DNA of 64,000 nt, taken from assembly GCA_964600695.1 (NCBI GenBank), contig CAZRKK010000002.1, positions 5,354 to 69,353 on the forward strand, given 5' to 3'. The first letter of the stretch is position 1; each line of letters starts with the position of its first letter. Below the pieces are notes generated by a model that was not told the DNA's origin, ran no database searches, and saw nothing but the letters and a program-made list of their open reading frames with translations. The stretch comes from an uncultured Candidatus Saccharibacteria bacterium (GTDB taxonomy: Bacteria; Patescibacteriota; Doudnabacteria; UBA920). This document shows positions 10,639 through 39,822 of this stretch, piece after piece. The position numbers were made by a program, and so were the translations under genes.

Positions 10639-10992
10639 ATGAACAAACAAGAGCATAAAATTTTAAAGCACAAATTACGTAAGGGTCGTGTTCGAAGCCG
10701 CGTCAGCGGTACCGAAGCGAGACCTCGTTTAAGCGTGTTTCGTTCTAATTCTCAAATCTACGCTCAAGTAATAGATGATATTTCTGGTAAGACTGTAGCT
10801 GCTACTTCTAGCATCAATATCAAATCAGCAGGTAAGAAAGTTGATCAAGCCACAGCTGTTGGTAAAGAAATTGCTGCTAAGGCAATCGCCAAAGGTGTTA
10901 AAGCAGTAGTGTTCGATAGAGGCGGTTATAAGTATCATGGTCGTGTAAAAGCATTAGCAGAAAGCGCTCGTGAAGCTGGGTTACAATTCTAA
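10639..10992 (+). CDS. rplR: 50S ribosomal protein L18
   Basis: [20 protein letters not shown]...[26 protein letters not shown]. Confidence 0.96.
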
Positions 10993-11005
10993 CTAATTTA
11001 AATAT

Positions 11006-11509
11006 ATGGAAAAAAGAACTCGTAGAAACAATTCAAGAGACGGCGGAGAAGCCCGTGAATTCGACCAAAAAGTGGTTGAGATTAAGCGTGTAACCCGTGT
11101 AGTTGCTGGTGGAAAACGTATGCGTTTTCGTGCACTTGTTGTAATTGGTGACCACAAAGGTAAAATCGGTATCGGTTTAAAGAAGGGGATGGATGTAACC
11201 GAAGCTGTAAACAAAGCTGTTAATGCTGCAAAGAAAAGCATGATCGTAGTACCAATTGTTAACGATACAGTTCCTCATCAAGTTAACATTAAGTATAAGT
11301 CTAGTAAGTTGTTAATGATGCCTGCTCGTCCTGGTACTGGTGTAATTGCTGGTGGTGCAGTTCGTAGCGTACTCGACCTTGCTGGTGTTAAGAATGTAAT
11401 CAGTAAAATGATTGGTTCTAACAACAAAACTAATAATGTCCGAGCCGCTTTCGAAGCTTTTAAAATGATGCGTAGTAAAGAAGAAATTTTAAAGAGCCGC
11501 GCAAAATAG
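11006..11509 (+). CDS. rpsE: 30S ribosomal protein S5
   Basis: VVEIKRVTRVVAGGKRMRFRALVVIGD.KG.IG.G.GK...V..A..KA motifs. Confidence 0.96.
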   Translation: MEKRTRRNNSRDGGEAREFDQKVVEIKRVTRVVAGGKRMRFRALVVIGDHKGKIGIGLKKGMDVTEAVNKAVNAAKKSMIVVPIVNDTVPHQVNIKYKSSKLLMMPARPGTGVIAGGAVRSVLDLAGVKNVISKMIGSNNKTNNVRAAFEAFKMMRSKEEILKSRAK

Positions 11510-11971: not shown

Positions 11972-11981
11972 ACTTATTAAG

Positions 11982-12095
11982 AGCCTATGGCAATTATTAA
12001 TTCCTGTCGCTAAACTGCTACGTCTGCTAAAAATTTCTTCGAAACTTTTGCATACTGGGCAGTGATGCTCCTTGAATCAACAATTGCCATAGGCT
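11982..12095 (+). other. 114-nt element closed by a perfect 14-bp long-range inverted repeat (candidate structured RNA)
   Basis: agcctatggcaatt (11982-11995) is the exact reverse complement of aattgccataggct (12082-12095). An internal hairpin lies within gcatactgggcagtgatgc. Confidence 0.5.
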
Positions 12096-12106
12096 TTAAA
12101 GTTTAA

Positions 12107-12142: not shown

Positions 12143-13420
12143 ATGAATAAATTAAGCTTAATTTGGAAAACTAAAGATTTGCGTTGGAAGATCTTCATGG
12201 TCATGATGTTGCTTTTAGTGACTCGTGTTTTGGCTCATGTCCCAATTCCTGGGATTAGCGTCACTGGCTTGAAGGCTTTCTTCGAAAGCAATCAATTTTT
12301 AAACTTATTGAACGTTTTTTCTGGTGGTGGACTAAGTAACTTTTCTATCGCTATGCTTGGTGTTGGACCATACATCACAGCATCTATTATTATGCAGTTG
12401 TTGGTCATGATTGTTCCTTCACTTACAGAACTACAGAAAGAAAGTGGAGAAGCTGGTCGAGTTAAAATCAACCAGTACACTCGTTTTTTGACTTTGCCAT
12501 TAGCAGTTTTGTCTGGTTTCGGAACTATTCGATTATTACAAAGCCAAGGTGGGGCAGAGTTACTTGGAACTTTCTCTCCTTTCCAGTGGTTCCTAACTTT
12601 GTTAACAGTTACCGCTGGTACAATGTTGGTTATGTGGATCGGTGAAATCATTTCCGAATACGGAATTGGTAATGGTGTATCTTTAGTAATTTTCGCCGGT
12701 ATCGTTTCTCAGTTACCTAAGAGCGTTGGTTCGTTGGTTCAGTTATATGATCCAAGCCAATTACCAACCATTATTGGATTTGCTATTGTCGCTTTGATCG
12801 TTATCGCCAGTGTAGTATTTGTGACTGAAGCTCAGCGCAATGTCCCGGTTACGTATGCAAAGCGGGTGAGTGGAGATAAACAAGTTGGTGGAGTTAACTC
12901 ATTCTTACCGTTACGTCTTAACCAAGCAGGTGTTATTCCAATCATCTTCGCAATTTCATTATTGTTGTTCCCAGCGATTATTGCTCAGTTCTTCTTAAAT
13001 GCCAAGACTCCTTTGATTGCTGAATATGCCCAAAAAGCTATTGATTTTACAAATAATCAAGGCGTTTGGTATGGCGTATCTTACTTCCTATTAGTTGTTA
13101 TATTCACTTATTTCTACACTAATATTGTTGTAAATCCAGATGAAGTTTCCGAAAACATGCAACGCAGTGGTGGCTTTGTTCCTGGTATTCGCCCCGGGAA
13201 GCAGACTGCTGATTACTTATACAAAGTTTTGAACCGCATCACTTTGCCTGGATCCTTATTCCTTGGTTTAATCGCTATCCTGCCTTTCATCTTACAAACA
13301 TGGACAGGAACCCGAGCATTAACATTTGGTGGTACTGGATTGCTGATTGTAGTAGCGGTAGTAATTGAAAGTATCAAGCAAGTCGAGGCTCAGCTAACTA
13401 TGCACGACTATCAAAAATAA
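12143..13420 (+). CDS. secY: preprotein translocase subunit SecY
   Basis: 425-aa 10-TM protein with SecY motifs (GISVTGLKAFF, GVGPYITASIIMQLL, NGVSLVIFAGI), after rplO. Confidence 0.96.
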   Translation: MNKLSLIWKTKDLRWKIFMVMMLLLVTRVLAHVPIPGISVTGLKAFFESNQFLNLLNVFSGGGLSNFSIAMLGVGPYITASIIMQLLVMIVPSLTELQKESGEAGRVKINQYTRFLTLPLAVLSGFGTIRLLQSQGGAELLGTFSPFQWFLTLLTVTAGTMLVMWIGEIISEYGIGNGVSLVIFAGIVSQLPKSVGSLVQLYDPSQLPTIIGFAIVALIVIASVVFVTEAQRNVPVTYAKRVSGDKQVGGVNSFLPLRLNQAGVIPIIFAISLLLFPAIIAQFFLNAKTPLIAEYAQKAIDFTNNQGVWYGVSYFLLVVIFTYFYTNIVVNPDEVSENMQRSGGFVPGIRPGKQTADYLYKVLNRITLPGSLFLGLIAILPFILQTWTGTRALTFGGTGLLIVVAVVIESIKQVEAQLTMHDYQK

Positions 13421-13426
13421 ATTATT

Positions 13427-13458
13427 AACTCCCTCTAGTAATTAGGGGGAGTTTTTTT
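13427..13458 (+). terminator. rho-independent terminator after secY
   Basis: aactccctc (13427-13435) pairs with gggggagtt (13445-13453), one G-U pair, followed by a T7 run. Confidence 0.75.
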
Positions 13459-13481
13459 ATTGGTATTTATTAGGAGTTTTG

Positions 13482-13490
13482 TGGTATAAT
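13482..13490 (+). promoter_or_regulatory. extended -10 promoter (TGgTATAAT)
   Basis: Exact TGGTATAAT, ending 9 nt before the ATG at 13500. Confidence 0.55.
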
Positions 13491-13499
13491 ATTCATATT

Positions 13500-13874
13500 A
13501 TGGCAGAAGAAATAAGAAAAATTCCTGGATTCGAATCAGAGCAATCTGCGGAACCAAATAGCAACGAGTCCCCAGAATCAGAACAGACTGAATCTCTAGA
13601 AGCATCGTCTTCGGAAACTCTGAGTGATAATAACTTAGACCAGCAGGATTTGAACGAGACACCAATTGAAGAAGAAGTCGATACATCTAACTTATCGATC
13701 GAATCAGCTTTAGAGCCCAAATCAGGAGTGACTGCTTCTGATTCTATTGCTTCCGAAAGTAACGATGAAGTTCTTTCTGAAAGATTGTTAGCCGACAGTA
13801 AAGAATTAGAGACTGCCACCGAAGCCCGTAAACTTTTAAATGATATCTTAGGCACAACCGAAACTAAAAACTAG
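13500..13874 (+). CDS. acidic S/E/D-rich, probably disordered protein
   Basis: 124 aa from the ATG at 13500. The TTG at 13479 in the ORF track overlaps the promoter. Low-complexity acidic composition, no family recognised. Confidence 0.5.
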   Translation: MAEEIRKIPGFESEQSAEPNSNESPESEQTESLEASSSETLSDNNLDQQDLNETPIEEEVDTSNLSIESALEPKSGVTASDSIASESNDEVLSERLLADSKELETATEARKLLNDILGTTETKN

Positions 13875-13909: not shown

Positions 13910-16468
13910 ATGCCTTTTGGATTTGAACTCAATACTGTAATTTATGCATCACTACTACTAGGAATTTTAGTAGTAGTGTTTTTGCTTGTCGCTGCTTATT
14001 ATATTCACAGGCATTGGTATTACAGTCATGTCATTTTACCCCGCACTAAAGAGTGGGTGTTTTTGGAAATTCAAATGCCAAAAGACAACAGCGAGGATAA
14101 AGAAAAATATCAACGCGATGAAGAAAAAAAATTACTAATTGGTATTGCCGAGCAATTATTCACAACTTTATCAGGAATTAGTCACACTAATTGGTTTTGG
14201 CAACCTAAAGAATATATAAGTTTTGAAATTGCGTGTACAGACAAAAAGATTTCCTTTTATATCAATTGTCCGCGTAAGCTTCAGGAGCTAATAGAAAAAC
14301 AAGTTCAAGCTCAGTACCCTCACGCTTTTATCGAGGAGATTAAAGGCTATAATCCCTTTCCAGAAACTGGGGAGATCGAAGCTACCGAGTTAAGATTGAC
14401 CAAGCCTTATATGTATCCTTTTCGTACTTACAAGAGTATGGAAACAGATCCATTGAATGCGTTAACAAACGCTATGTCAAAACTGAGCGATGGTGATGGG
14501 GCGGTTATTCAAATGATTTTGTATCCAGCAGGGGATCACTGGCAGCATCGTCCGCGGCACATGGCTTTAGAAATTCAGCAAGGTAAAAATCCGAACATTG
14601 TTGCCAAGAGTGCGTTTGGAAGATTTGCGCGCGAGGTAGGAAGCACAGCTAAGGATGGTGTCTTAGGTGGAACTCAGTTAAGTAAAGATCAAATGCAACA
14701 ACGTACCGATTTGTCGGGACGTTATTCGGCCATCAACTTAACTCCGATGCAACAAGACATGGTTAAGCGTTTCGAAGAAAAAGCTAGCCGCCCAGGCTTC
14801 TATACCAACATTCGTATTGTCACAGCATCACCAACTCCTGGAACAGCTAAAGTGAATATGCATAATTTAGTGTCTTCATTTTTGCAGTACAACATGCCGC
14901 CGTTTAATGGTTTTAGAGTTAAGCGTCGTGCTAAGAAGCGTATTATTAAAGATTATATTTTTAGAATTTATCGCCGCTACGGACGTAAGTCTATTTTAAA
15001 TACCGAAGAATTAACTAGTATTTGGCATCTTCCGACTCCATTTTTGGAAACACCTAATATTAAATGGTTGTTATCTAAAAAAGCTCCACCACCTATAAAC
15101 TTGCAACCAGAAGGAATATTACTAGGCCGAAATATATATCGTGGGCAGGAGACACCAATTCATATGGCACGTGATGATCGTCGTCGTCACATGTATATTT
15201 TGGGACGTACTGGTGTGGGTAAAACCGAAATCATGAAATACATGTCCGTTCAAGATATCAAGAACGGTGATGGAATTTGTATTATCGATCCTCATGGTGA
15301 TTTTATTGAAGATGTTTTACCTCACATTCCAAAAGAACGAGCCGAAGATGTAATCTTATTTGACCCATTCGATACCGACAGGCCGATGGGTTTGAACATG
15401 CTCGAAGTCACTAGTGAAGGTCAAAAAGATTTTGCTGTTCAAGAAATGATCTCTATCTTTTATAAATTAGTTACAGATCCTGCGATGCTTGGACCTATGT
15501 TCGAGCACAACATGCGTAATGCCATGCTAACCTTAATGGCTGACGAAGAAAATCCTGGAACTATTGTTGAAGTCCCACGTATATTTACGGACACTGAATT
15601 CCAAAAGTATAAAGTCTCTAAATTAAATGATCCTGTGGTAAGAGCATTTTGGGAGAAAGAAATGGCCAAGACTTCCGATTTTCATAAGTCGGAAATGTTA
15701 GGTTACTTAGTTTCTAAAGTAGGCCGCTTTGTAGAAAATTCCATGATGCGAAATATTGTTGGTCAACCAAAGAGTTCTTTTAACTTCCGTGATATCATGG
15801 ATAACAAAAAAATTCTTTTGGTGAATTTAGCAAAGGGTAAAGTAGGGGAGGTGAACGCAAAATTAATTGGCTTAATTTTAGTGAGTAAAATTCAAATGGC
15901 GGCATTGTCCCGTGCAGATATTCCAGAAAGCGAACGCCAAGATTTCTATTTATATGTTGATGAATTCCAAAACTTTATTACCGATGCTTTTTCTTCTATT
16001 TTGAGCGAAGCCCGTAAGTATCGATTGAATTTGATTATTGGTCATCAGTTCTTAGCTCAGTTGGGGCAAGCAGCTGGTGCGCAAGGTGCAGCTAGTAACG
16101 ATTTACGTGATGCTGTGTTTGGTAATGCTGGTAGTATGGTAACTTTCCGTATTGGTGTAGAAGATAGTGAAGTTATGGCAAAGGAGTTTGCACCAACTTT
16201 TAATGAGTTTGATTTATTAAATGTCGATAGATTTAATGCTTTTGTAAAGTTGATGATTAATGGAACAGCCAGCAAACCATTTAACATGGCCACATACCCC
16301 TTAGCTAAACCAACTGAAGATCAAAAGAAGACAGGGGATGCTATTCGACAGTTATCAAGGTTAAAATTTGGTCGTCCACGGGCCGAAGTTGAAGCAGAAA
16401 TCCTAGAAGCCAGCCAAGTTGCTGATATGATGGCGGCTGGTCCAGGGAGTATCGAGAAAACGGTTTAA
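13910..16468 (+). CDS. membrane-anchored P-loop NTPase, TraG/VirD4 (type IV coupling protein)-like, FtsK-HerA superfamily
   Basis: N-terminal TM helix (VIYASLLLGILVVVFLLVAAYYI). Walker A is LGRTGVGKTE and IIDPHGDF follows it. Walker B is FYLYVDEFQNF, then ARKYRLNLIIGHQFLAQL, resembling the TraG-D_C region. Confidence 0.7.
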   Translation: MPFGFELNTVIYASLLLGILVVVFLLVAAYYIHRHWYYSHVILPRTKEWVFLEIQMPKDNSEDKEKYQRDEEKKLLIGIAEQLFTTLSGISHTNWFWQPKEYISFEIACTDKKISFYINCPRKLQELIEKQVQAQYPHAFIEEIKGYNPFPETGEIEATELRLTKPYMYPFRTYKSMETDPLNALTNAMSKLSDGDGAVIQMILYPAGDHWQHRPRHMALEIQQGKNPNIVAKSAFGRFAREVGSTAKDGVLGGTQLSKDQMQQRTDLSGRYSAINLTPMQQDMVKRFEEKASRPGFYTNIRIVTASPTPGTAKVNMHNLVSSFLQYNMPPFNGFRVKRRAKKRIIKDYIFRIYRRYGRKSILNTEELTSIWHLPTPFLETPNIKWLLSKKAPPPINLQPEGILLGRNIYRGQETPIHMARDDRRRHMYILGRTGVGKTEIMKYMSVQDIKNGDGICIIDPHGDFIEDVLPHIPKERAEDVILFDPFDTDRPMGLNMLEVTSEGQKDFAVQEMISIFYKLVTDPAMLGPMFEHNMRNAMLTLMADEENPGTIVEVPRIFTDTEFQKYKVSKLNDPVVRAFWEKEMAKTSDFHKSEMLGYLVSKVGRFVENSMMRNIVGQPKSSFNFRDIMDNKKILLVNLAKGKVGEVNAKLIGLILVSKIQMAALSRADIPESERQDFYLYVDEFQNFITDAFSSILSEARKYRLNLIIGHQFLAQLGQAAGAQGAASNDLRDAVFGNAGSMVTFRIGVEDSEVMAKEFAPTFNEFDLLNVDRFNAFVKLMINGTASKPFNMATYPLAKPTEDQKKTGDAIRQLSRLKFGRPRAEVEAEILEASQVADMMAAGPGSIEKTV

Positions 16469-16509: not shown

Positions 16510-16538
16510 TTGACAAAATCAACTATTTGTGATATTAT
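16510..16538 (+). promoter_or_regulatory. near-consensus sigma70 promoter with extended -10
   Basis: TTGACA (16510-16515), 17-nt spacer, TGaTATTAT (16530-16538). Confidence 0.65.
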
Positions 16539-16593
16539 ATTCGCAGTAGTTTTTTTGTAGTTTAAATCAATTTAGTTGGAGGACTTTGTTAAT

Positions 16594-17064
16594 ATGTATA
16601 AAAACTCGTTGGTCATGAAGATGATCCTAACGTTTGCGGCCTTTAGCGCCGTCGTTGTATTCCTGAACTACGTGGTCGGCATGCCGACTACTAAGCGCAT
16701 GAACTTCGTCTTGATGAGCTATGGTGTTGGTTCGGCCACCATCTTGGCTCTCGCGGCCGTTTTTCCGAGCCGTCTGACATCGGCGCTGTGCCGTCTTGTG
16801 CAGATTGGTTGGGCAGTGGCCATCGTTCTCGGTGGTTTTGCTATGATTATTATCATTGTGGTTGGTTTGGGGCAGTTTAACCTGCCGTTCCTATCGCTAC
16901 AGTGGTATAGCCTGTTCATGGCTTTAGGAATCTTGGGGGCCAGCGTGTTCATGTTTGTCAACGACTCGTATTTTGAAGTCGTTAACGAATATGAAAGCAA
17001 AGCTGGGAAGCCTAAGGTGGTGACACCGCCGGCAAACAGCACTTCGTCGAGCGTTTCGGCATAG
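16594..17064 (+). CDS. 4-TM membrane protein, G+C/CpG-rich coding sequence, no family recognised
   Basis: GGAGGA at 16578-16583, 10 nt before the ATG at 16594, which I prefer over the TTG at 16576. Four hydrophobic helices. Codon usage differs from neighbouring genes. Confidence 0.6.
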   Translation: MYKNSLVMKMILTFAAFSAVVVFLNYVVGMPTTKRMNFVLMSYGVGSATILALAAVFPSRLTSALCRLVQIGWAVAIVLGGFAMIIIIVVGLGQFNLPFLSLQWYSLFMALGILGASVFMFVNDSYFEVVNEYESKAGKPKVVTPPANSTSSSVSA

Positions 17065-17091
17065 AAACTCCGCACAAGGGTTAGAAGTATT

Positions 17092-17128
17092 GGGTAAGAG
17101 CGAAAATATTCGCTTTTACCCTTTTTTT
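17092..17128 (+). terminator. rho-independent terminator
   Basis: 11-bp stem gggtaagagcg (17092-17102) / cgcttttaccc (17111-17121) with one G-U pair, then T7. Confidence 0.8.
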
Positions 17129-17169
17129 ATTGCCTAAAATTGCCATTTTAAAATTTCTGTTATCAGCTA

Positions 17170-17198
17170 TTGACAAAACATCAAAAATAGTGTATACT
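17170..17198 (+). promoter_or_regulatory. near-consensus sigma70 promoter
   Basis: TTGACA (17170-17175), 17-nt spacer, TATACT (17193-17198). It shares the tattgacaaaa context with the promoter at 16510. Confidence 0.65.
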
Positions 17199-17233
17199 GT
17201 TACTTAAACTAAATATTGGTTAGAAAGTGAATT

Positions 17234-17346
17234 ACCTTCAGAAATTCAGATTTATCGAGATATGGTTTTCTGAAGGTCATGCACGTGTATGACTGTTGTA
17301 GCGCTGTAAATAAAAAAACAGCATTGTAACGGTCAATCACATGACC
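17234..17346 (+). ncRNA. structured 5' leader (four consecutive hairpins), candidate cis-regulatory RNA
   Basis: P1 17234-17277 has an 11-bp stem. P2 17276-17293 is a near-palindrome. P3 17295-17330 has a 13-bp stem with G-U pairs that work only on the + strand. P4 is 17331-17346. Confidence 0.4.
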
Positions 17347-17385
17347 AAGTTTTCAAAAACAGCCTAAGGAGGGCTAATCAATACT

Positions 17386-18102
17386 ATGCAGAAATTCATT
17401 ATTTCGTTCGTTTTTGTCGCAATGTCACTTATGGCTGTTTCGTCGGCCTCGGCCCAGAATCCGGACTTGAACGTTCCGGTGCCTTCGGGAAAGACGCAGA
17501 CCACGAAGAGCCCGGACTTGAACGTTCCGGTGCCTAACAAGTCGGTTCAAAGTTCGGCTAACGTCTATAGGACGTACCGCAACACTACGGTCGTTAAGAA
17601 GTATTCCATGAACGGCGTCGACAAAGACGCTCGTGAAGTGAATGTCGCTCAGGACATTCGTATAAAAAAACTGGAAGACGGCAAGGCTAACTCGTCGGAC
17701 GTCGAAGCAGGATTTAAGTCGGTTGACGATCGTTTCGCGGCTAAGGATCAGGTGGATGCACGACAGGACCGAGAGCTCGGATATACTTTCTGGGCTTTCA
17801 TAATCATCCCGGTAGTCTTTCTGGTTCTGGCGTTGTTGTACTTCATGTTTGGAGGCAACAATAATAACGTTCAGGTTAACGGTGGTGGACATGCACCGGC
17901 ATACGTACCTCAGGCCCAGCCTGCAGTACAGCCGATACCATACTACCAGCCTATTCCTGCACAACCCGTTCCTGCGGCACAACCGGTTCCTGCAGCCAAC
18001 CAACAGCCAAGCGTAAATGTTCCGATCAATATTGCGGTCGAGCCGATTCAGATCGATCTCCGACCGTCGTTGCGTGGAACACCGCCGGCACCCGCTCAGT
18101 AG
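17386..18102 (+). CDS. secreted, TM-anchored protein with PDLNVPVP repeats and a P/Q-rich tail; G+C/CpG-rich coding sequence
   Basis: AAGGAGGG lies 9 nt upstream of the ATG. Signal peptide ends ...AVSSASA|Q. TM helix FWAFIIIPVVFLVLALLYFMF. 11 of 16 Ser codons are TCG. Confidence 0.65.
   Translation: MQKFIISFVFVAMSLMAVSSASAQNPDLNVPVPSGKTQTTKSPDLNVPVPNKSVQSSANVYRTYRNTTVVKKYSMNGVDKDAREVNVAQDIRIKKLEDGKANSSDVEAGFKSVDDRFAAKDQVDARQDRELGYTFWAFIIIPVVFLVLALLYFMFGGNNNNVQVNGGGHAPAYVPQAQPAVQPIPYYQPIPAQPVPAAQPVPAANQQPSVNVPINIAVEPIQIDLRPSLRGTPPAPAQ
17461..17535 (+). repeat. 24-nt exact direct repeat, two copies 51 nt apart
   Basis: ccggacttgaacgttccggtgcct occurs at 17461-17484 and 17512-17535, encoding PDLNVPVP twice. 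Confidence 0.9.
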
Positions 18103-18118
18103 TGAGCATCTCTCTTAC

Positions 18119-18149
18119 AGAGAGCAAGGTAAAACTTGCTCTCTTTTTT
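18119..18149 (+). terminator. rho-independent terminator
   Basis: Perfect 10-bp stem agagagcaag (18119-18128) / cttgctctct (18135-18144), then T6. Confidence 0.85.
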
Positions 18150-18167
18150 CATTTTTATAAAAAATAG

Positions 18168-18212: not shown

Positions 18213-21200
18213 ATGGCTAAAGCCGAAATGGCTCGTCAACCAGATCAAGGTCCAGAACCGGCAATTGACTTGTCGAAAACACTCAAAACCAGTGTAGATG
18301 ATGCTAAAAATAGAGCACGACCACGAGGCCGTGATGTTGATTTTGCTATCCAGCAGAATGATATGCGCGAAGCTAATTTAAGACAGGGTCATCCAGACAT
18401 ATCTGATAAAAAAGAGTTTATTCGACGGGAAAAGGCAAAGAACGAGGCGCGTAGTAAGTCTAAATCTGAAAAGGGACCTAAAAAGAATGAAGTAATTCTT
18501 CAACCTATAGCTCCGGCAGAAAAATTAAAAGCTGTAGTTAACCAAGAAAAAGCCGCGCAGAAACAAAAACCAGAGCAAAAGCCGGAAACACAGCCAGAAC
18601 AAAAGATAGCTCAACAAGAACAAAAAGCAGCCCAAGAAACCAGTAAAGTTGTAGAAAGTGTAGTTCAGGAAAGCACTAAAGAGATGTCCGCAGAAGTGGA
18701 CAAGGCACTTGCCGTACATGCAATTAGTCCAGAACATGCTCAGCAAGCCAAAGCAGTTATAAACAATGAACAGGTAAAGCAAGGAGTTTTTTCTAGAGCT
18801 TTTGGTGCTATAAAAGACAAAGCAGTGGGTGTTAAAGAGTGGTTTGCAGATAGTCCTAGGTTAACTTCACTTTTGGTTGGTGCGGGTACTGGTATGGGTG
18901 TTCGTTACGCTGTTAAGGCTGGGTTTATTGCTGCATTTGGAGCAAACTTACCTTGGTTGGTTGCCGCAGGTGCCACTGCAGGTGGTTTACTAGAAGGTGG
19001 GCGTTCATTTTGGCGTGAATCAAAATCCTATCAATCTAAAGAGATTATGGATCGGTTCAGAAGCGCGGATTATCTAGAAAAGGCAGCCATGCTTTCTAAG
19101 CTTGAGGAAGCATACAAAACCCAAAGATTTGATGCGTCTCCAGAAGGTTACCAAGAAATTGGTACAGCTTTGGCTCATGCTCGAACAGAAATGCAACTTG
19201 AATTAGACAAAAAGGATGGCAAGTTTGCTAATCATTCCGATCGAGATAAAATTCAATATATTTTAAATTTATCACAAGGTATTAAGGGTGAAATTCATAA
19301 AGATAATCGTGGTAAGGAAGCCAGAAAGCTTATTCGTGACATCGAAAAGAGCTTAGAGTACAAGCGTGATTTTAAAGGTGTCTTACAGAACAAAAAGATG
19401 GTAGTTGCCAAGGCAGCTCTTAAAGGTGCAGCTTATGGTGGGCTGGGTTCATTAATCGGTGGGGCAGTATCACACTATTTCTTCGAAAGTGGAACAACTC
19501 AAACTGTCAGCCATGTTGTCGAGAACAGACCTACTGTGGCAGATCATTTTACAAAACATTTAGATCATCGAGGTTTAACCGGTGGTGCTCGTGATTCATT
19601 GCATGATTTGATAGAAGAACAAAGAGGTATTGATCCTAATTTTGCCGAAGGAGTCACTGTAGAGCAACTAGTTTATGCAGAAGACACTCTCGCTAAAGAG
19701 GCTATTAAAAATGGCGTTAAGTCTGGCGTTTCGGAGCATACTTGGACTCATGATGAGTTGATGCGAGCCTTAGAAAAATCTGGAGCGGTTGGAGATAGTT
19801 CTACGCTTACTGAAGCAGGAGAAAGGAATATCGGACGATTGATTTCGCATCGACCTCATTTCTTGTCCGAAGCTACCAAAGAGAAAATGCTTGATTTTAC
19901 ACCTAAAGATTTTAATGTAGTTGTTGAGCAAATTACTTCTCAACCAGAAAATATCGTTCTCTCAAACGAAGATTATGCAGCTATTATTGGTGCACTAACC
20001 CTAGTAGCGGCTTCAGAAGTGGCTAGTGCCGCCGACAGAAGAATCGCTAAGAATCGGCTTGAACAAATGCAAGCGAATCCTCCAACTGGCCAGCCAGGGG
20101 ATGGTGTAGAAACAGCTCCAGCTAATAATGTTGTATGGCCTACAGAAGGTGTTCTTACTGCAGAAGAAGCACGTGTGGATAATAGAAAATTCCCTAATGG
20201 CCCACCACCGTCACCATTTGATGGTAATGTAGAAACTACTCCTACACCTAAACCAGAGGGTAGTCCTTTTGATGACGAAAAAAAGCAAAATGCAGAGTCG
20301 ACTACTAATAAAGCAGGTAAGGTTGAGGAAATTGACGAAGATGTTGAAGCTCAAGTGGATGTACAAGATTTGCCTGGTGTAGAAAAAATCAAAGACTCGG
20401 AAGTTACTCCCGATGCAATTAATCGAAAACTGAAGAGTGCAAAAGTTAATGCAGAAGTAGTACCATGGCCTTTAGAAAAGATTACCAACAAACAGAAAGG
20501 ACAAATTAACAGATTAACTGATTTATATATTTCTTCGGCACGCAAGTTAAACGCCTTAAATATTACAAATAAGGTTGTCTTGAATTTTTATCCAACAGGT
20601 TCAAGAGAGTTAGATTTTACAGATTCTGAATTTACCGCTGGTATTCCTCTTAGTGATAAAACTTATAATAAAAAGAGCTTCGAGAGCTTAGTAGATAGGA
20701 TGATTGAAACTAAGATTTCCGAAAAGTTTGCTGAAATACAAAATAACTATGCATTTCAAACAGAGATGCCTGTCATAGGAAATTCAGAGGATGATCAAGC
20801 TGTTGAACAGTATAAAGCTTTAGATAAATTCCAGCGAAACATGGAAGCAATCGACGCAAAAGAATTAAAACGACTAACTTCTGGACTTAAGAAAGTTACA
20901 ATTGGTGACTATTCATTTATAGGTACTGATGAGGTGGTTCTACCAATGTTTATTAGAGACAACAGGGGTTATCATTATAAATCTTTCAAGCCTAACCAAT
21001 TAAAGGGTATGTTGAAAGAGTATTCCAAAGATCGGTTTGCGTTAAAGCCGATGGATTTAAAAGAGCAGAATGATAAATATCCAAATATTGGAGCAGATAA
21101 AAACTTTTACGATAATATCGAGGAAGCTGAGAGGATAAAAGCAGAAGAATTAGTATACAGTGTTATTGAAAATGAATTCAAAGATGGTTTTCCACCAAAC

Positions 21201-21806
21201 GTAAAGGTATTGTTTTCGGATAGATTCCAGTCAAAGCCAGGTGTCTTATACCTCGACATGTCAAAGTTTGACCAAGCATATATTAGTCGTCAGCTTCACC
21301 AAGGATTGCGTCGTTCTGCGCCAGATCGTTTACAGCGCACTCCTGGTCCTGTTAAAGAGCGTTTAAAGCGGGTTTCTCCTGATTATGGGAATAAAAAGTC
21401 TGACCAAGACAAAGCCATTGAAGCAGCTGTTGATAGAATAATTCGACCCGAAGATTGGGAGAAAAAAGAAACTGGGCCAGCTAATTTAAACCATATTGAA
21501 GAACAGAACGGAGAAGATGAGCTCTATAGTTTACTTGGAGACATAGATAAGAAATATCCAGGGTCTATCTCCGAAAGCATGCAAAAAAAGATCTCTAGTT
21601 ACTTAAAAGACAATAATTTATCAGCAGAGGATTTACTAACCGCCGATAAATTACCTAAAATTACGAGTGTTCTTCCTAAAAAACTTGAGCAGTACATAGC
21701 CGAAGAGTCGTTTGCTAAACTAGAAAAACTGGCAATGGCCGACGAGGATTATACTGACGAAGGCATTAGATTAAAAAATCAGTTAGAAGAATTCATCAAA
21801 AAATAA
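18213..21806 (+). CDS. giant (~1197 aa) multi-TM protein, no family recognised
   Basis: I prefer the ATG at 18213 over the TTG at 18192. The protein has a K/Q/E-rich N-terminal region, G/A-rich hydrophobic segments (e.g. SLLVGAGTGMGV...LPWLVAAGATAGGLL), a P-rich linker and a ~500-aa C-terminal region. Confidence 0.6.
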   Translation: MAKAEMARQPDQGPEPAIDLSKTLKTSVDDAKNRARPRGRDVDFAIQQNDMREANLRQGHPDISDKKEFIRREKAKNEARSKSKSEKGPKKNEVILQPIAPAEKLKAVVNQEKAAQKQKPEQKPETQPEQKIAQQEQKAAQETSKVVESVVQESTKEMSAEVDKALAVHAISPEHAQQAKAVINNEQVKQGVFSRAFGAIKDKAVGVKEWFADSPRLTSLLVGAGTGMGVRYAVKAGFIAAFGANLPWLVAAGATAGGLLEGGRSFWRESKSYQSKEIMDRFRSADYLEKAAMLSKLEEAYKTQRFDASPEGYQEIGTALAHARTEMQLELDKKDGKFANHSDRDKIQYILNLSQGIKGEIHKDNRGKEARKLIRDIEKSLEYKRDFKGVLQNKKMVVAKAALKGAAYGGLGSLIGGAVSHYFFESGTTQTVSHVVENRPTVADHFTKHLDHRGLTGGARDSLHDLIEEQRGIDPNFAEGVTVEQLVYAEDTLAKEAIKNGVKSGVSEHTWTHDELMRALEKSGAVGDSSTLTEAGERNIGRLISHRPHFLSEATKEKMLDFTPKDFNVVVEQITSQPENIVLSNEDYAAIIGALTLVAASEVASAADRRIAKNRLEQMQANPPTGQPGDGVETAPANNVVWPTEGVLTAEEARVDNRKFPNGPPPSPFDGNVETTPTPKPEGSPFDDEKKQNAESTTNKAGKVEEIDEDVEAQVDVQDLPGVEKIKDSEVTPDAINRKLKSAKVNAEVVPWPLEKITNKQKGQINRLTDLYISSARKLNALNITNKVVLNFYPTGSRELDFTDSEFTAGIPLSDKTYNKKSFESLVDRMIETKISEKFAEIQNNYAFQTEMPVIGNSEDDQAVEQYKALDKFQRNMEAIDAKELKRLTSGLKKVTIGDYSFIGTDEVVLPMFIRDNRGYHYKSFKPNQLKGMLKEYSKDRFALKPMDLKEQNDKYPNIGADKNFYDNIEEAERIKAEELVYSVIENEFKDGFPPNVKVLFSDRFQSKPGVLYLDMSKFDQAYISRQLHQGLRRSAPDRLQRTPGPVKERLKRVSPDYGNKKSDQDKAIEAAVDRIIRPEDWEKKETGPANLNHIEEQNGEDELYSLLGDIDKKYPGSISESMQKKISSYLKDNNLSAEDLLTADKLPKITSVLPKKLEQYIAEESFAKLEKLAMADEDYTDEGIRLKNQLEEFIKK

Positions 21807-21809
21807 GCC

Positions 21810-22124
21810 ATGATTAAAGATACAATAGACAAGGTTCTTAAAGAGTTAAACGTCAACAATCTATCTGATGATGATAAGTTTGCGGTGATGGAGCAACTTA
21901 CAGAGCACTTTAACAAAATCATTCTAGACACAGTACTAGCTAATCTTAATGACGAGCAACTCCTCGAGTTTAAGAATATGGTTGATCTGGAGGATTTAGA
22001 TAAAATGGAAGAAGGAATTGCTCTTATTGTAGCCAAAATTCCCGCAATAAACTTTAAAATCGAAGAAGCCATTAATAATGAAATCGCTCATATTAAAGAA
22101 TCCAAAGCGATAATCGATCGATAG
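21810..22124 (+). CDS. small acidic helical protein, hypothetical
   Basis: 104-aa ORF starting 3 nt after the giant gene's stop, so probably co-transcribed. Confidence 0.5.
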   Translation: MIKDTIDKVLKELNVNNLSDDDKFAVMEQLTEHFNKIILDTVLANLNDEQLLEFKNMVDLEDLDKMEEGIALIVAKIPAINFKIEEAINNEIAHIKESKAIIDR

Positions 22125-38509: not shown

Positions 38510-38574
38510 TTGTCCTCCAGTCGATCGATGTAATAATTGATGTAGCACTAGTATTAAATCATAAATTATCAATT

Positions 38575-39822
38575 TTGTCAATAGAAAGCTTAACAAATAT
38601 TCTTAAAAAAGATGCAAAATCTCTCAAAAATAAGAGAGTTTTGTTAAGATTAGATTTAAACGAAGAGATATCCACAACTGGTAAGTTGCTAGATAATTTT
38701 AGGATTCAGTCGGCAATACCTACAATAAAAATTTTGCGTTCTGCTGGTGCAAAAATCATTATCGTCTCTCATTTGGGTCGGCCAGAAGGGAAGTGGGGTA
38801 CTAGCTTGTCCTTAAAACCAATCGCTAATTGTTTAGCAGAGATGTTGGATTATAAGTACGTAGAGACTGATGGTAAGTTACCGACATATTCAATTCCACA
38901 TCTCGTACTTTTTAAAAATGATATTACCAAGCCTGAGTCTTTAGAATTTCTAAATGATCAGTCAGCTCAGGATATTGTGATGTTAGAAAATATTCGCTTT
39001 TACGAAGGCGAAGATCTAAACTCAGATATTTTTTCGGAACAACTTTCTAAGACAGCTGATTTATTTGTTAATGATGCGTTTAGTGTTTGTCATAGAGCAG
39101 CTGCTTCTGTAGTTGGGGTTACTAAATACCTACCTAGTAGTGCAGGGCCCTTACTAGAAAAAGAAATTAAAGCACTAGAGTTCATGCTTTCTAATAAAGT
39201 TGCAAAACCATTTGTTCTTATGATGGGCGGAATTAAGATTGCCGACAAAGAACAAACTTTGCGTAACCTTGGTAAGCGAGCCGACAAGATTTTACTTGCC
39301 GGTGGTTTGGCTAATTTGTTTTTAAAAGCTCAGGGTTATGATGTTGGTGTTGATGTTGCAGATAAAAAAAGCCTGGCTTTAGCCAAAGAGTTATTACTAA
39401 ATTTTAAATCAAAACTAGTATTACCTTCTGATGTTGCAGTTAAAACTATCAAAGCCCCAAATCAGGCACAAGCTAAACAGTTATCAGAAATTGTGGCTAC
39501 AGATAAACTTTATGATATTGGTCCGCAATCAATTTTGGCTTTTAGCAAGATATTAAAAACTGCTGGAACAATTTGTTGGAATGGCCCACTAGGGTATTTT
39601 GAGGATAAGTCTTTTCGGGCGGGGACAATGGCTATCTCCAATGTTATAGGTGGTTTAGGTAAACGCAAAGCTTACGTATTGGTAGGTGGTGGTGAAACCG
39701 TTGCCTCTGTTAGGTTGGCTGGCCAGTTAGAACACATTGACCATGTGTCTACAGGTGGTGGTGCTATGCTAGAATTTTTAGCCGGTGCTAAACTTCCTGG
39801 AATTGAAGCCTTAAGAAAATAA
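38575..39822 (+). CDS. pgk: phosphoglycerate kinase
   Basis: RLDLN, VSHLGRP, FYEGE, GGGD/GGGAMLEFL-type motifs. Apparent TTG start. Confidence 0.93.
   Translation: MSIESLTNILKKDAKSLKNKRVLLRLDLNEEISTTGKLLDNFRIQSAIPTIKILRSAGAKIIIVSHLGRPEGKWGTSLSLKPIANCLAEMLDYKYVETDGKLPTYSIPHLVLFKNDITKPESLEFLNDQSAQDIVMLENIRFYEGEDLNSDIFSEQLSKTADLFVNDAFSVCHRAAASVVGVTKYLPSSAGPLLEKEIKALEFMLSNKVAKPFVLMMGGIKIADKEQTLRNLGKRADKILLAGGLANLFLKAQGYDVGVDVADKKSLALAKELLLNFKSKLVLPSDVAVKTIKAPNQAQAKQLSEIVATDKLYDIGPQSILAFSKILKTAGTICWNGPLGYFEDKSFRAGTMAISNVIGGLGKRKAYVLVGGGETVASVRLAGQLEHIDHVSTGGGAMLEFLAGAKLPGIEALRK

What the first reader, a model, noticed from the sequence alone, without database searches (positions are those of the whole stretch)
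16510..18149. Compositionally foreign two-gene cassette (G+C- and CpG-rich coding sequences inside AT-rich, host-like expression signals)
Seen:
- Both ORFs (16594-17064 and 17386-18102) have markedly higher G+C than everything around them. Hand counts give 32/60 G+C and 7 CpG in 16621-16680, and 35/60 G+C in 17941-18000. The neighbouring ATPase gene has 21/60 G+C and 2 CpG in 15001-15060.
- The shift is at synonymous sites. In the second gene 11 of 16 Ser codons are TCG, and Asn/Asp/Lys/Phe/Tyr codons are mostly C/G-ending. The first 100 codons of the ATPase gene use TCA/AGT/AGC for Ser and mostly A/T-ending codons.
- Long antisense shadow ORFs (16719-17075 and 17425-18003) are a by-product of this composition.
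- Each gene is a self-contained unit with a near-consensus TTGACA-17-TATNNT promoter sharing the tattgacaaaa context, a strong SD and its own terminator. The flanks of each unit are AT-rich.
- The products are a 4-TM protein and a secreted TM-anchored protein with PDLNVPVP repeats and a QPVPAAQPVPAA tail.

Inference: this is either recent horizontal acquisition (for a CPR-type epibiont, a higher-GC host is an attractive donor) or strong atypical selection on these two genes.
Basis: seen in the sequence. Interest (0 to 1): 0.7.

Follow-up and report, generated by a model that had tools for sequence, protein, structure and literature searches.

The report
Native envelope genes with private codon usage
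Two small membrane-protein genes in a Saccharibacteria genome look foreign because they are much richer in G+C than their neighbours, but they are old native genes whose odd codon choice follows the gene across relatives and goes with unusually tightly folded mRNAs.

Summary
Genes 16594-17064 and 17386-18102 have GC3 of 0.64 and 0.56, against 0.24-0.45 for 71 other ORFs (+7.4 and +5.6 SD). Ser, Pro and Thr use mainly TCG, CCG and ACG, the rarest codons in the ribosomal-protein genes. Each gene has a near-consensus promoter, a Shine-Dalgarno site and a terminator.

Recent acquisition from a higher-GC donor is not supported. Both protein families occur only in Saccharibacteria/Patescibacteria, with no plasmid or phage match. 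The pair sits in the same place in more than 10 independent assemblies. Gene 2 keeps the same promoter and structured 5' leader in distant lineages. Its GC3/NCG signature recurs in most lineages, including one where the gene has moved to the other strand. It is absent in the two most AT-rich lineages.

In most lineages the coding mRNAs fold more stably than their own synonymous-codon shuffles (z -2.5 to -5.5; controls about 0 ± 1.2). Alleles are mosaic, with dS mostly 2-5 times that of the flanks.

Best reading: strongly expressed, fast-diversifying envelope proteins under synonymous-site selection for structured, stable mRNA. Rivals are GC-biased gene conversion, allele import from GC-richer Saccharibacteria and rare-codon control.

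The parts
16510..16538 (+). Promoter of gene 1 (TTGACA, 17-nt spacer, TATTAT, with TG extension)
   Evidence: Matches 11 of 12 consensus positions. Function is inferred from the consensus match only.
16578..16583 (+). Shine-Dalgarno site GGAGGA of gene 1
   Evidence: Read from the sequence. It lies 10 nt upstream of the ATG at 16594.
16594..17064 (+). Gene 1: 156-aa membrane protein with four transmembrane helices and an invariant YVVGMPTTKRMNF loop. GC3 is 0.64.
   Evidence: ORF. Composition. Homologues only in Saccharibacteria. AlphaFold2 model is a 4-helix bundle with pLDDT 77. No Pfam, NCBIfam, PHROG or PDB fold match. The N-terminal MYKNSLV extension is conserved in P0007, P0012 and P0013.
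17092..17131 (+). Intrinsic terminator of gene 1
   Evidence: 13-bp stem followed by a T run. Conserved among strains.
17170..17198 (+). Promoter of gene 2: TTGACAAAA, 6 nt, AAATAGTGTATACT (extended -10)
   Evidence: Matches 11 of 12 consensus positions. The motif is the same upstream of gene 2 orthologues in L003, L014, L018, L027, L042, L043 and L044.
17199..17385 (+). Structured 5' leader of gene 2. Hairpin P1 is 17235-17276 and P2 is 17290-17335. A further hairpin at 17361-17375 presents the Shine-Dalgarno site.
   Evidence: Minimum free energy -55.3 kcal/mol, z -5.3. Conserved across lineages, with 11 of 34 pairs changed on both sides. No Rfam family matches. Coordinates.
17386..18102 (+). 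Gene 2: 238-aa envelope protein. It has a signal peptide (aa 1-23), two PDLNVPVP repeats, a conserved TTVVKKYSMNGVDKDAR motif and a helical stalk. It then has a transmembrane helix (aa 135-155) and a Pro/Gln-rich tail ending in a conserved VNVPINIAVEPIQIDLRPSLRG motif. GC3 is 0.56.
   Evidence: ORF. Alignment. Composition. Remote homologues only in Saccharibacteria. AlphaFold2 secondary structure. Coordinates.
17635..17685 (+). Hypervariable patch of gene 2 (aa 84-100, on the distal ectodomain helix)
   Evidence: Alignments. For aa 80-102, dN is about 0.3 and dS 0.7-1.3 between strains whose flanking ATPase has dS 0.06-0.10.
18119..18152 (+). Intrinsic terminator of gene 2
   Evidence: 10-bp stem followed by a T run. 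Conserved among strains.
16719..17075 (-). Antisense shadow ORF (118 aa), read as a by-product of composition
   Evidence: The translation is Arg-rich and junk-like.
17425..18003 (-). Antisense shadow ORF (192 aa) in the codon-complement frame, read as a by-product
   Evidence: It stays open because gene 2 has only 1 TCA and no TTA or CTA codons. In L003 the equivalent 240-aa ORF was mis-annotated as the gene.

Best explanation
The two ORFs are native, vertically inherited Saccharibacteria genes. One encodes a small 4-TM membrane protein. The other encodes a protein with a signal peptide, a helical stalk and a membrane anchor.

Each gene is its own transcription unit with a near-consensus promoter, a strong ribosome-binding site and a strong terminator. 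Gene 2 also has a conserved, structured leader of about 190 nt.

Their G+C-, G-ending- and CpG-rich third codon positions are a property of the genes themselves, not of a donor genome. The most likely cause is selection on synonymous sites for a densely base-paired, RNase-resistant and therefore long-lived mRNA. This would work together with the promoter, leader and terminator to sustain high output of envelope proteins. Third positions are the only free sites for this in an AT-rich genome. G is favoured because it pairs with both C and U, and A is avoided.

The proteins themselves diversify quickly. Old, mosaic alleles and a hypervariable ectodomain helix are what one expects of exposed surface components.

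Shown: the outlier composition; the restricted phyletic range and synteny; recurrence of the signature in orthologues; excess mRNA folding relative to synonymous shuffles; allele age and mosaicism.

Inferred: that mRNA stability is the selected trait; that expression is very high; that the proteins are surface-exposed.
For: 1. Native origin.
- Homologues are found only in Saccharibacteria/Patescibacteria, and there is no plasmid or phage match.
- The order SecY, small acidic protein, VirD4/TraD-like ATPase, gene 1, gene 2, roughly 1200-aa protein recurs in L001-L012.
- More distant orthologues lie in the same neighbourhood in L014, L018, L027, L043 and L044. L042 is a short contig without the ATPase that carries the pair next to a large ORF.
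- The gene 2 promoter and leader are conserved in all of these lineages.

2. The signature belongs to the gene.
- In gene 2, NCG/NCN is 0.30-0.49 against a background of 0.09-0.23. TCG far exceeds TCC and CCG far exceeds CCC.
- This holds in the window clade, L007, L003, L014, L027 and L043. It also holds in L016, where the gene lies elsewhere on the opposite strand.
- These lineages share only about 36-56% amino-acid identity, and dS is saturated.
- The codon usage does not match the background of GC-richer Saccharibacteria. TCG is 0.59 in the cassette against 0.09-0.25 there, and GGC is 0.18 against 0.38-0.62.

3. Excess mRNA structure.
- Compared with shuffles that keep the protein and the codon usage, gene 2 gives z of -2.5 (window), -5.5, -4.2, -4.0, -4.2, -4.0 and -2.85 in other lineages.
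- Gene 1 gives z of -3.3, -2.85, -2.5 and -3.85.
- Seventeen control genes from the window have mean z of about -0.2 and sd 1.2. Six controls from other loci range from -1.6 to +0.6.
- Mann-Whitney p is 6e-4 for gene 2 and 2e-3 for gene 1. The result is robust to shuffling within 50-codon blocks.
- Minimum free energy per nt is -0.34 to -0.45, against -0.21 to -0.28 in controls.

4. CpG is also enriched across codon boundaries (C3 before G1, odds ratio 1.32, p 0.009), unlike the background. This points to a nucleic-acid-level cause rather than a purely tRNA-level one.

5. The design matches a known pattern for abundant surface-protein genes: an efficient promoter, a long structured 5' UTR that stabilises the mRNA, and biased codon usage (PMC3666127). 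Coding-region structure is reported to raise the functional mRNA half-life (PMC6883848; title and abstract only).
Against: - L014 and L044 show no folding excess (z about -0.5). L018 and L042 have no GC3 excess, although L018 still shows a folding excess.
- Gene 1 is GC-rich only in the window clade and L027.
- Recent polarised third-position changes run S>W 33 against W>S 14. GC3 is therefore not rising now. This is compatible with mutation-selection balance but also with slow decay.
- The extreme TCG-over-TCC preference is only loosely explained by pairing potential.
- Covariation support for specific helices in the gene 1 coding region is weak, and the test structure was derived from the same alignment.
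- There are no expression, half-life or localisation data.
- Only 64 kb of this genome could be examined.
Confidence: 0.45

Rival explanations
1. GC-biased gene conversion at a recombination hot spot. The locus is repeatedly exchanged between strains by homologous recombination. Biased mismatch repair, possibly CpG-directed and Vsr-like, pushes heteroduplex sites towards G/C.
For: - The cassette is the most divergent stretch among otherwise 98-100% identical strains, and it is mosaic.
- dS is mostly 2-5 times that of the flanks.
- CpG is enriched across codon boundaries as well as within codons.
- The size of the effect varies between lineages.
Against: - The TCG:TCC ratio of about 19:1 is not expected from a symmetric W>S drive.
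- The shift stops at the start and stop codons.
- Recent changes are S>W biased.
- It does not explain why the arrangement of synonymous codons favours folding.
Confidence: 0.2
2. Allele import (introgression) from GC-richer Saccharibacteria. The cassette composition reflects a shared allele pool that includes lineages with GC3 of about 0.5-0.6.
For: - Deeper and sister lineages have background GC3 of 0.47-0.56.
- Cassette divergence does not track ATPase divergence. L014 has 93% ATPase identity but the weakest cassette similarity.
- Cassette dS exceeds flank dS.
Against: - The codon signature differs from the backgrounds of those genomes.
- Gene 2 is itself an NCG outlier inside a GC-richer genome: 0.41 against 0.22 in L043.
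- No close donor allele was found among 5.8 billion proteins.
- The folding excess is left unexplained.
Confidence: 0.12
3. Rare-codon, tRNA-gated translational control, as with bldA in Streptomyces. Dense use of codons that are otherwise rare makes the synthesis of these proteins depend on particular tRNAs or tRNA modifications.
For: The preferred codons are the rarest in the ribosomal-protein genes: TCG 2%, ACG 1%, CTG 4% and CCG 10%. The preference is kept in many lineages.
Against: - No tRNA genes lie in the window, so the tRNA set could not be examined.
- CpG enrichment across codon boundaries and the folding excess point to an RNA- or DNA-level cause.
- Codons for Gly, Arg, Ala and Val stay like the rest of the genome.
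Confidence: 0.1
4. Recent horizontal acquisition from a higher-GC donor such as the host bacterium.
For: Strong compositional outlier. The preferred codons partly resemble those of high-GC bacteria (compared with my own knowledge of actinobacterial codon usage).
Against: - No homologue outside Patescibacteria.
- Syntenic in many relatives.
- Native expression signals are conserved with the gene.
- There are no mobility genes, tRNA genes or flanking repeats.
- Orthologues of normal composition exist in AT-rich relatives (L018 and L042).
Confidence: 0.03
5. Overlapping antisense genes constrain the third codon positions.
For: Long antisense ORFs of 118, 192 and, in L003, 240 aa.
Against: - Their translations are Arg-rich and junk-like.
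- The gene 1 antisense ORF is in a different frame relation from the gene 2 one (coordinates).
- The openness follows directly from avoidance of TTA, CTA and TCA codons.
Confidence: 0.02

Closest known systems
Expression design of abundant surface (S-layer) protein genes, e.g. Lactobacillus slpA
   Same: Efficient near-consensus promoter, long structured 5' UTR that stabilises the mRNA, biased codon usage, strong terminator, and a secreted envelope protein (PMC3666127; window features).
   Different: There is no sequence or fold similarity to S-layer proteins. The product is membrane-anchored and small. The codon bias runs towards the genome's rarest, G/C-ending codons, not towards the codons preferred in ribosomal-protein genes. 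Abundance is untested.
Hypervariable extracellular-protein gene with atypical codon use in a CPR bacterium (Gracilibacteria BD1-5)
   Same: An AT-rich CPR genome carries a locally hypervariable gene for an exposed protein. That gene uses C-ending synonymous codons far more than the genome average (PMC6851277).
   Different: There the variation lies in a tandem PTD repeat region of a large protein. Here it is allelic and mosaic, with a hypervariable helix. The proteins are unrelated. The persistence across lineages and the folding excess shown here were not reported there.
Horizontally acquired genomic islet
   Same: Sharp local rise in G+C, GC3 and CpG, plus atypical codon usage.
   Different: There is no donor, no mobility signature and no absence in relatives. 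The shift is confined to the coding sequences, and native signals are conserved with the gene.
Membrane components next to type IV secretion coupling ATPases (VirD4/TraD neighbourhood)
   Same: The pair lies beside, or within a few genes of, a TrwB/TraD-like ATPase in most lineages where the flank is available.
   Different: There is no homology to VirB or Trb proteins. Each gene is a separate transcription unit. In L015 and L016 the gene 2-like gene lies elsewhere.

Membership tests
Horizontally acquired (foreign) DNA | Composition and codon usage deviate from the host genome | tested here: met
   GC3 is 0.64 and 0.56 against 0.31 ± 0.04. NCG codons are 6-10 times enriched.
Horizontally acquired (foreign) DNA | Closest homologues lie in another taxon (phyletic incongruence) | tested here: not met
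   All homologues are Saccharibacteria/Patescibacteria. No plasmid or phage match.
Horizontally acquired (foreign) DNA | Absent from sister strains or species at the same site | tested here: not met
   Present and syntenic in L001-L012. Orthologues are also found in L014, L018, L027 and L042-L044. L015 and L016 lack it at this site but carry a gene 2-like gene nearby.
Horizontally acquired (foreign) DNA | Mobility signature: integrase or transposase, tRNA target, flanking direct repeats | tested here: not met
   The nine neighbouring proteins scanned against Pfam show no integrase or transposase domain. The window has no tRNA gene. There are no flanking repeats.
Surface-protein high-expression gene design (S-layer-like) | Efficient promoter, long structured stabilising 5' UTR and strong terminator | tested here: met
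   Function is inferred from sequence only.
Surface-protein high-expression gene design (S-layer-like) | Product is a very abundant self-assembling surface-layer protein | not testable with these tools
   No family or fold match. No expression or proteome data were available.
Diversity-generating retroelement target | Template/variable repeat pair and a nearby reverse transcriptase | tested here: not met
   No second copy of the variable patch exists in the 64-kb window. Differences between alleles include saturated synonymous changes and indels.
Type IV secretion system component | Homology to VirB/Trb/Prg membrane components | tested here: not met
   No Pfam or NCBIfam hit. No significant PDB fold match for the gene 1 model.
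Known cis-regulatory RNA (Rfam) for the gene 2 leader | Match to a curated covariance model | tested here: not met
   Only chance-level miRNA and sRNA matches, with E of 0.27 or more.

The most novel reading that the evidence does not exclude
The selected object is the RNA or DNA of the locus, not only its proteins. Saccharibacteria would keep a gene-private codon 'dialect' (NCG and G-ending codons) together with a conserved, unclassified 5' leader RNA in a hypervariable envelope-protein locus. This could form a new post-transcriptional control module: an exceptionally stable or regulated mRNA, possibly gated by tRNA availability. Alternatively it could be the footprint of CpG-directed biased mismatch repair at a natural-transformation hot spot.
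Probability: 0.15. Interest if true: 0.65.

Novelty: new variant of a known kind. Interest (0 to 1): 0.45.

Why it matters
It is a clean warning case. A +6-7 SD compositional outlier with host-like signals would be called horizontal transfer by any composition-based method, yet it is native.

It also marks a gene pair specific to one group of Saccharibacteria. The pair looks strongly expressed and fast-diversifying, and it encodes envelope proteins. Its leader RNA is conserved. These are candidates for surface components exposed to host or phage in epibionts, whose surface biology is barely known.

If synonymous-site selection for mRNA structure is confirmed, it would show that this force can raise GC3 by 0.3 in single genes of an AT-rich reduced genome.

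The signature also misleads gene callers. One public assembly annotates the antisense shadow ORF instead of the real gene.

Tried and rejected
- Pfam, NCBIfam and PHROG scans of both proteins found nothing.
- The AlphaFold2 model of gene 2 was low-confidence (pLDDT 49), so no fold search was run on it.
- The gene 1 model gave only generic helical-bundle matches in the PDB, with E above 0.8. The afdb50 library was unavailable.
- The Rfam scan of the cassette found nothing credible.
- Polarised W>S against S>W counts by Fitch parsimony and by outgroup consensus were inconclusive. The control genes themselves looked out of equilibrium and the counts were small.
- k-mer enrichment found no single dominant DNA motif (no uptake, Chi or methylation-site candidate), only general NCG and CpG contexts.
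- A search for silent donor cassettes or DGR-like repeats in the window was negative.
- The metagenome scan with the gene 2 promoter motif returned 34 contigs. Of the 14 where my ORF filter found a downstream ORF, only L065 carried a gene 2 orthologue, and one other contig had the motif upstream of a tmRNA. The motif is therefore a generic strong promoter and not a marker of the family.
- Covariation in the gene 1 coding region was only suggestive.
- Literature searches found no prior description of this gene pair.
Full report
**1. The observation**

The window has 38.6% G+C. A mechanical ORF set of 73 genes shows GC3 of 0.24-0.45 everywhere except in two adjacent plus-strand ORFs.
- Gene 1 (16594-17064) has GC3 0.64 and 7.2 CpG per 100 nt.
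- Gene 2 (17386-18102) has GC3 0.56 and 9.1 CpG per 100 nt.

Against the other 71 ORFs (mean 0.314, sd 0.044) these values lie +7.4 and +5.6 SD away.

G+C in 60-nt steps rises within the first codons of each gene. It falls to 0.18-0.28 in the promoter and terminator segments that follow each stop codon.

The codon tables confirm that the shift is at synonymous sites.

| Codon | Gene 1 / gene 2 | Other genes |
|---|---|---|
| TCG (share of Ser) | 50% / 69% | 2-8% |
| CCG (share of Pro) | 83% / 52% | 10-11% |
| ACG (share of Thr) | 14% / 50% | 1-5% |
| CAG (share of Gln) | 100% / 78% | about 30% |

- A at the third position drops from about 0.30 to 0.10-0.17.
- TCG, ACG and CTG are the rarest codons in the ribosomal-protein genes of the same window. 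This is therefore not ordinary translational optimisation.
- Gly, Arg, Ala and Val codons stay like the rest of the genome.

The two promoters match 11 of 12 consensus positions and are the only such matches in 10 kb. Both terminators are confirmed. The antisense ORFs exist.

**2. Organism and context**

Related contigs are labelled Candidatus Saccharibacteria.

The cassette lies downstream of the ribosomal-protein/SecY block, a small acidic protein and an 852-aa ATPase. This ATPase has TrwB/TraD-like coupling-protein domains. Downstream of the cassette is a 1204-aa protein with no family match.

**3. Foreign or native?**

Searches of 5.8 billion proteins found 6-7 homologues for each gene, all close relatives. 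A profile search for gene 1 and an exhaustive HMMER profile search of 1.84 billion representatives for gene 2 added only a few more distant proteins. These have the same architecture, and those that carry a source label or whose contigs I retrieved are Patescibacteria/Saccharibacteria. Plasmid and phage collections gave nothing.

The contigs that encode these homologues show the same gene order in more than 10 independent assemblies. This also rules out a chimeric assembly.

Orthologues of both genes occur in L014, L027, L018 and L042. Gene 2 orthologues also occur in L043 (a closed 943-kb genome) and in L044. Where the flank is available they lie in the same neighbourhood, and homology for L018 is supported by a profile comparison.

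Every gene 2 orthologue is preceded by the same promoter, TTGACAAAA-N6-AAATAGTGTATACT, and by a structured leader of 70-215 nt. L044 has the shortest leader, about 70 nt.

In L015 and L016 the site after the ATPase is empty. A gene with the same architecture, a similar promoter and leader, and the same Shine-Dalgarno hairpin (GGCCUAAGGAGGGCC in L016) lies on the other strand. It sits beyond the roughly 1500-aa gene.

No mobility genes, tRNA genes or flanking repeats are present. Recent acquisition from a higher-GC donor is therefore not supported.

**4. The signature follows the gene**

NCG/NCN in gene 2 compared with the local background:

| Lineage | Gene 2 NCG/NCN | Background |
|---|---|---|
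| Window clade | 0.38-0.47 | 0.09-0.16 |
| L007 | 0.34 | 0.11 |
| L003 (GC3 0.68) | 0.46 | 0.11 |
| L014 | 0.38 | 0.14 |
| L027 | 0.35 | 0.15 |
| L043 | 0.41 | 0.22 |
| L016 (relocated copy, GC3 0.60 against 0.31) | 0.49 | not computed |
| L044 | 0.30 | 0.23 |

- TCG outnumbers TCC in almost every lineage, for example 19:1, 11:3, 6:1, 5:0 and 8:0.
- In the two most AT-rich lineages (L018 and L042) gene 2 is compositionally ordinary.
- Gene 1 is GC-rich only in the window clade and L027.
- These orthologues share 36-56% amino-acid identity. dS between the window and L003 is saturated even for the ATPase.
- A passively retained foreign or ancestral composition could not persist under those conditions. 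An ongoing force tied to the gene is needed.
- The signature is not that of GC-richer Saccharibacteria genomes. They use TCC at least as often as TCG, and they prefer GGC and CGC.

**5. Evidence on the mechanism**

I shuffled synonymous codons within each gene, keeping the protein and the codon usage, and refolded the RNA.

| Set | z of native mRNA against its own shuffles |
|---|---|
| Gene 2 | window -2.5, L003 -5.5, L043 -4.2, L027 -4.0, L007 -4.2, L008 -3.8, L002 -2.95, L016 -4.0, L015 -2.85, L018 -2.8 |
| Gene 2, weak or absent | L042 -1.4, L014 -0.4, L044 -0.5 |
| Gene 1 | window -3.3, L027 -2.85, L003 -2.5, L018 -3.85, L014 -0.5 |
| 17 control genes, window | mean about -0.2, sd 1.2, minimum -2.2 |
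| 6 control genes, other loci | -1.6 to +0.6 |

- Mann-Whitney p is 6e-4 for gene 2 and 2e-3 for gene 1.
- Shuffling within 50-codon blocks gives the same picture.
- The absolute folding energy per nucleotide is -0.34 to -0.45, against -0.21 to -0.28 in controls.
- C before a G-starting codon is also enriched in gene 2 (odds ratio 1.32, p 0.009) but not in the background. The preference therefore acts on dinucleotides as well as on codons.
- A consensus fold of seven gene 1 alleles keeps 94% of cells paired. Double changes are somewhat more frequent than in shuffles. This is only suggestive, because the structure was derived from the same alignment.

These results fit selection on synonymous sites for a densely paired mRNA. 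Near-consensus promoters, the structured leader (z -5.3) and strong terminators complete the picture. This is the design described for abundant surface-layer protein genes, which combine an efficient promoter, a stabilising structured 5' UTR and biased codon usage (PMC3666127). Structure in coding regions is reported to lengthen the functional mRNA half-life (PMC6883848). That high stability and high expression are the selected traits remains an inference.

**6. The proteins and their evolution**

Gene 1 models as a four-helix membrane bundle (pLDDT 77) with an invariant YVVGMPTTKRMNF loop. It has no significant fold relative.

Gene 2 has the following parts:
- a cleavable-looking signal peptide;
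- two PDLNVPVP repeats;
- a conserved TTVVKKYSMNGVDKDAR motif;
- two helices, the second running into the membrane anchor;
- a Pro/Gln-rich tail ending in a conserved VNVPINIAVEPIQIDL motif.

Among strains whose ATPase is 98-100% identical (dS 0.06-0.10, dN/dS 0.01), the cassette is among the most divergent segments, at 82-92% identity.
- Gene 2 dS is 0.23-0.35.
- Gene 1 dS ranges from 0.08 (against L001, no higher than the flank) to 0.47.
- dN/dS is 0.13-0.23 for gene 2 and 0.04-0.20 for gene 1.

Alleles are mosaic. A hypervariable patch (aa 84-100, on the distal helix) has dS of 0.7-1.3. The variants are therefore old alleles shuffled by recombination, not new mutations. This fits exposed proteins under diversifying or balancing selection.

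Many assemblies break at or near the locus. This is what one expects from strain heterogeneity. A hypervariable exposed-protein gene with excess C-ending codons has been described in another CPR bacterium (PMC6851277).

**7. Rival explanations**

- GC-biased gene conversion at this recombination-prone locus is the main rival. It explains the link with mosaicism and the CpG enrichment across codon boundaries. It does not explain TCG far exceeding TCC, the limits at the start and stop codons, the folding excess, or the recent S>W bias of 33 against 14.
- Allele import from GC-richer Saccharibacteria is suggested by the mismatch between cassette and ATPase divergence. However, the signature is not that of those genomes.
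- Rare-codon gating fits the choice of rare codons but could not be tested, because the window has no tRNA genes.
- Antisense coding is unlikely.
- Host-to-epibiont transfer is contradicted.

**8. Verdict**

The feature is real and ordinary chance cannot produce it, but it is not foreign DNA. It is a native pair of envelope-protein genes found only in Saccharibacteria/Patescibacteria. The pair has a gene-private, structure-favouring codon usage and a conserved, unclassified leader RNA.

I rate it a new variant of a known kind: the high-expression design of surface-protein genes, combined with a compositional outlier that mimics transfer. Interest is moderate.

Noticed in passing
window 17199-17385, and the equivalent regions of L003, L007, L014, L016, L018, L027, L042 and L043: The gene 2 mRNA has a conserved structured leader of about 150-215 nt with two hairpins. 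A third small hairpin presents the Shine-Dalgarno site in its loop and 3' arm (AGCCUAAGGAGGGCU, or GGCC...GGCC in other lineages). Compensatory changes occur. No Rfam family matches, so it may be an undescribed cis-acting RNA.
   Followed up: partly
L003 10758-11480 (-) versus 10806-11498 (+): The gene calls held for this contig of assembly GCA_041910175.1 list the 240-aa antisense shadow ORF instead of the real gene 2 orthologue. The GC-rich codon usage misleads gene callers.
   Followed up: yes
L016 13537-14244 (-) and L015 9617-10282 (-): Two lineages lack the cassette after the ATPase. They carry a gene of the same architecture on the opposite strand beyond the roughly 1500-aa gene, with a similar promoter and leader. 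L016 shows the same GC3/NCG signature (0.60 and 0.49) and a folding excess (z -4.0).
   Followed up: yes
L045-L078 (metagenome contigs), e.g. L052 2498-2526: The promoter motif TTGACAAAA-N6-AAATAGTGTATACT occurs in 34 metagenome contigs, most of them unrelated to gene 2. In one it lies 24 nt upstream of a tmRNA gene. It appears to be a generic very strong promoter.
   Followed up: partly
window 13910-16468: An 852-aa ATPase with TrwB/TraD/VirD4-like domains lies after SecY and a small acidic protein where that flank is held. Its homologues in related contigs also carry DUF8128. Twenty-nine relatives were found at 56-99% identity, and dN/dS is about 0.01. It looks like a core gene and not a conjugation remnant.
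   Followed up: partly
window 13400-13600, 18400-18600 and 21800-22000: These are further local divergence peaks among otherwise near-identical strains. They fall in the start of the small acidic protein gene and its upstream spacer, the N-terminal part of the 1204-aa protein, and the 104-aa gene, which differs in L001.
   Followed up: no
window 11977-12100: A 55-nt imperfect inverted repeat (71% complementary) lies in the spacer between the rplO-like gene and secY.
   Followed up: no
window 38552-38583: A sequence resembling the gene 1 promoter (TATTGACAAAAT...) occurs in inverted orientation between two plus-strand genes.
   Followed up: no
L013 (contig ends at the ATPase stop); the short contigs of P0002, P0004, P0007 and P0013: Many public assemblies break at or next to the cassette. 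This fits strain-level hypervariation at the locus.
   Followed up: no
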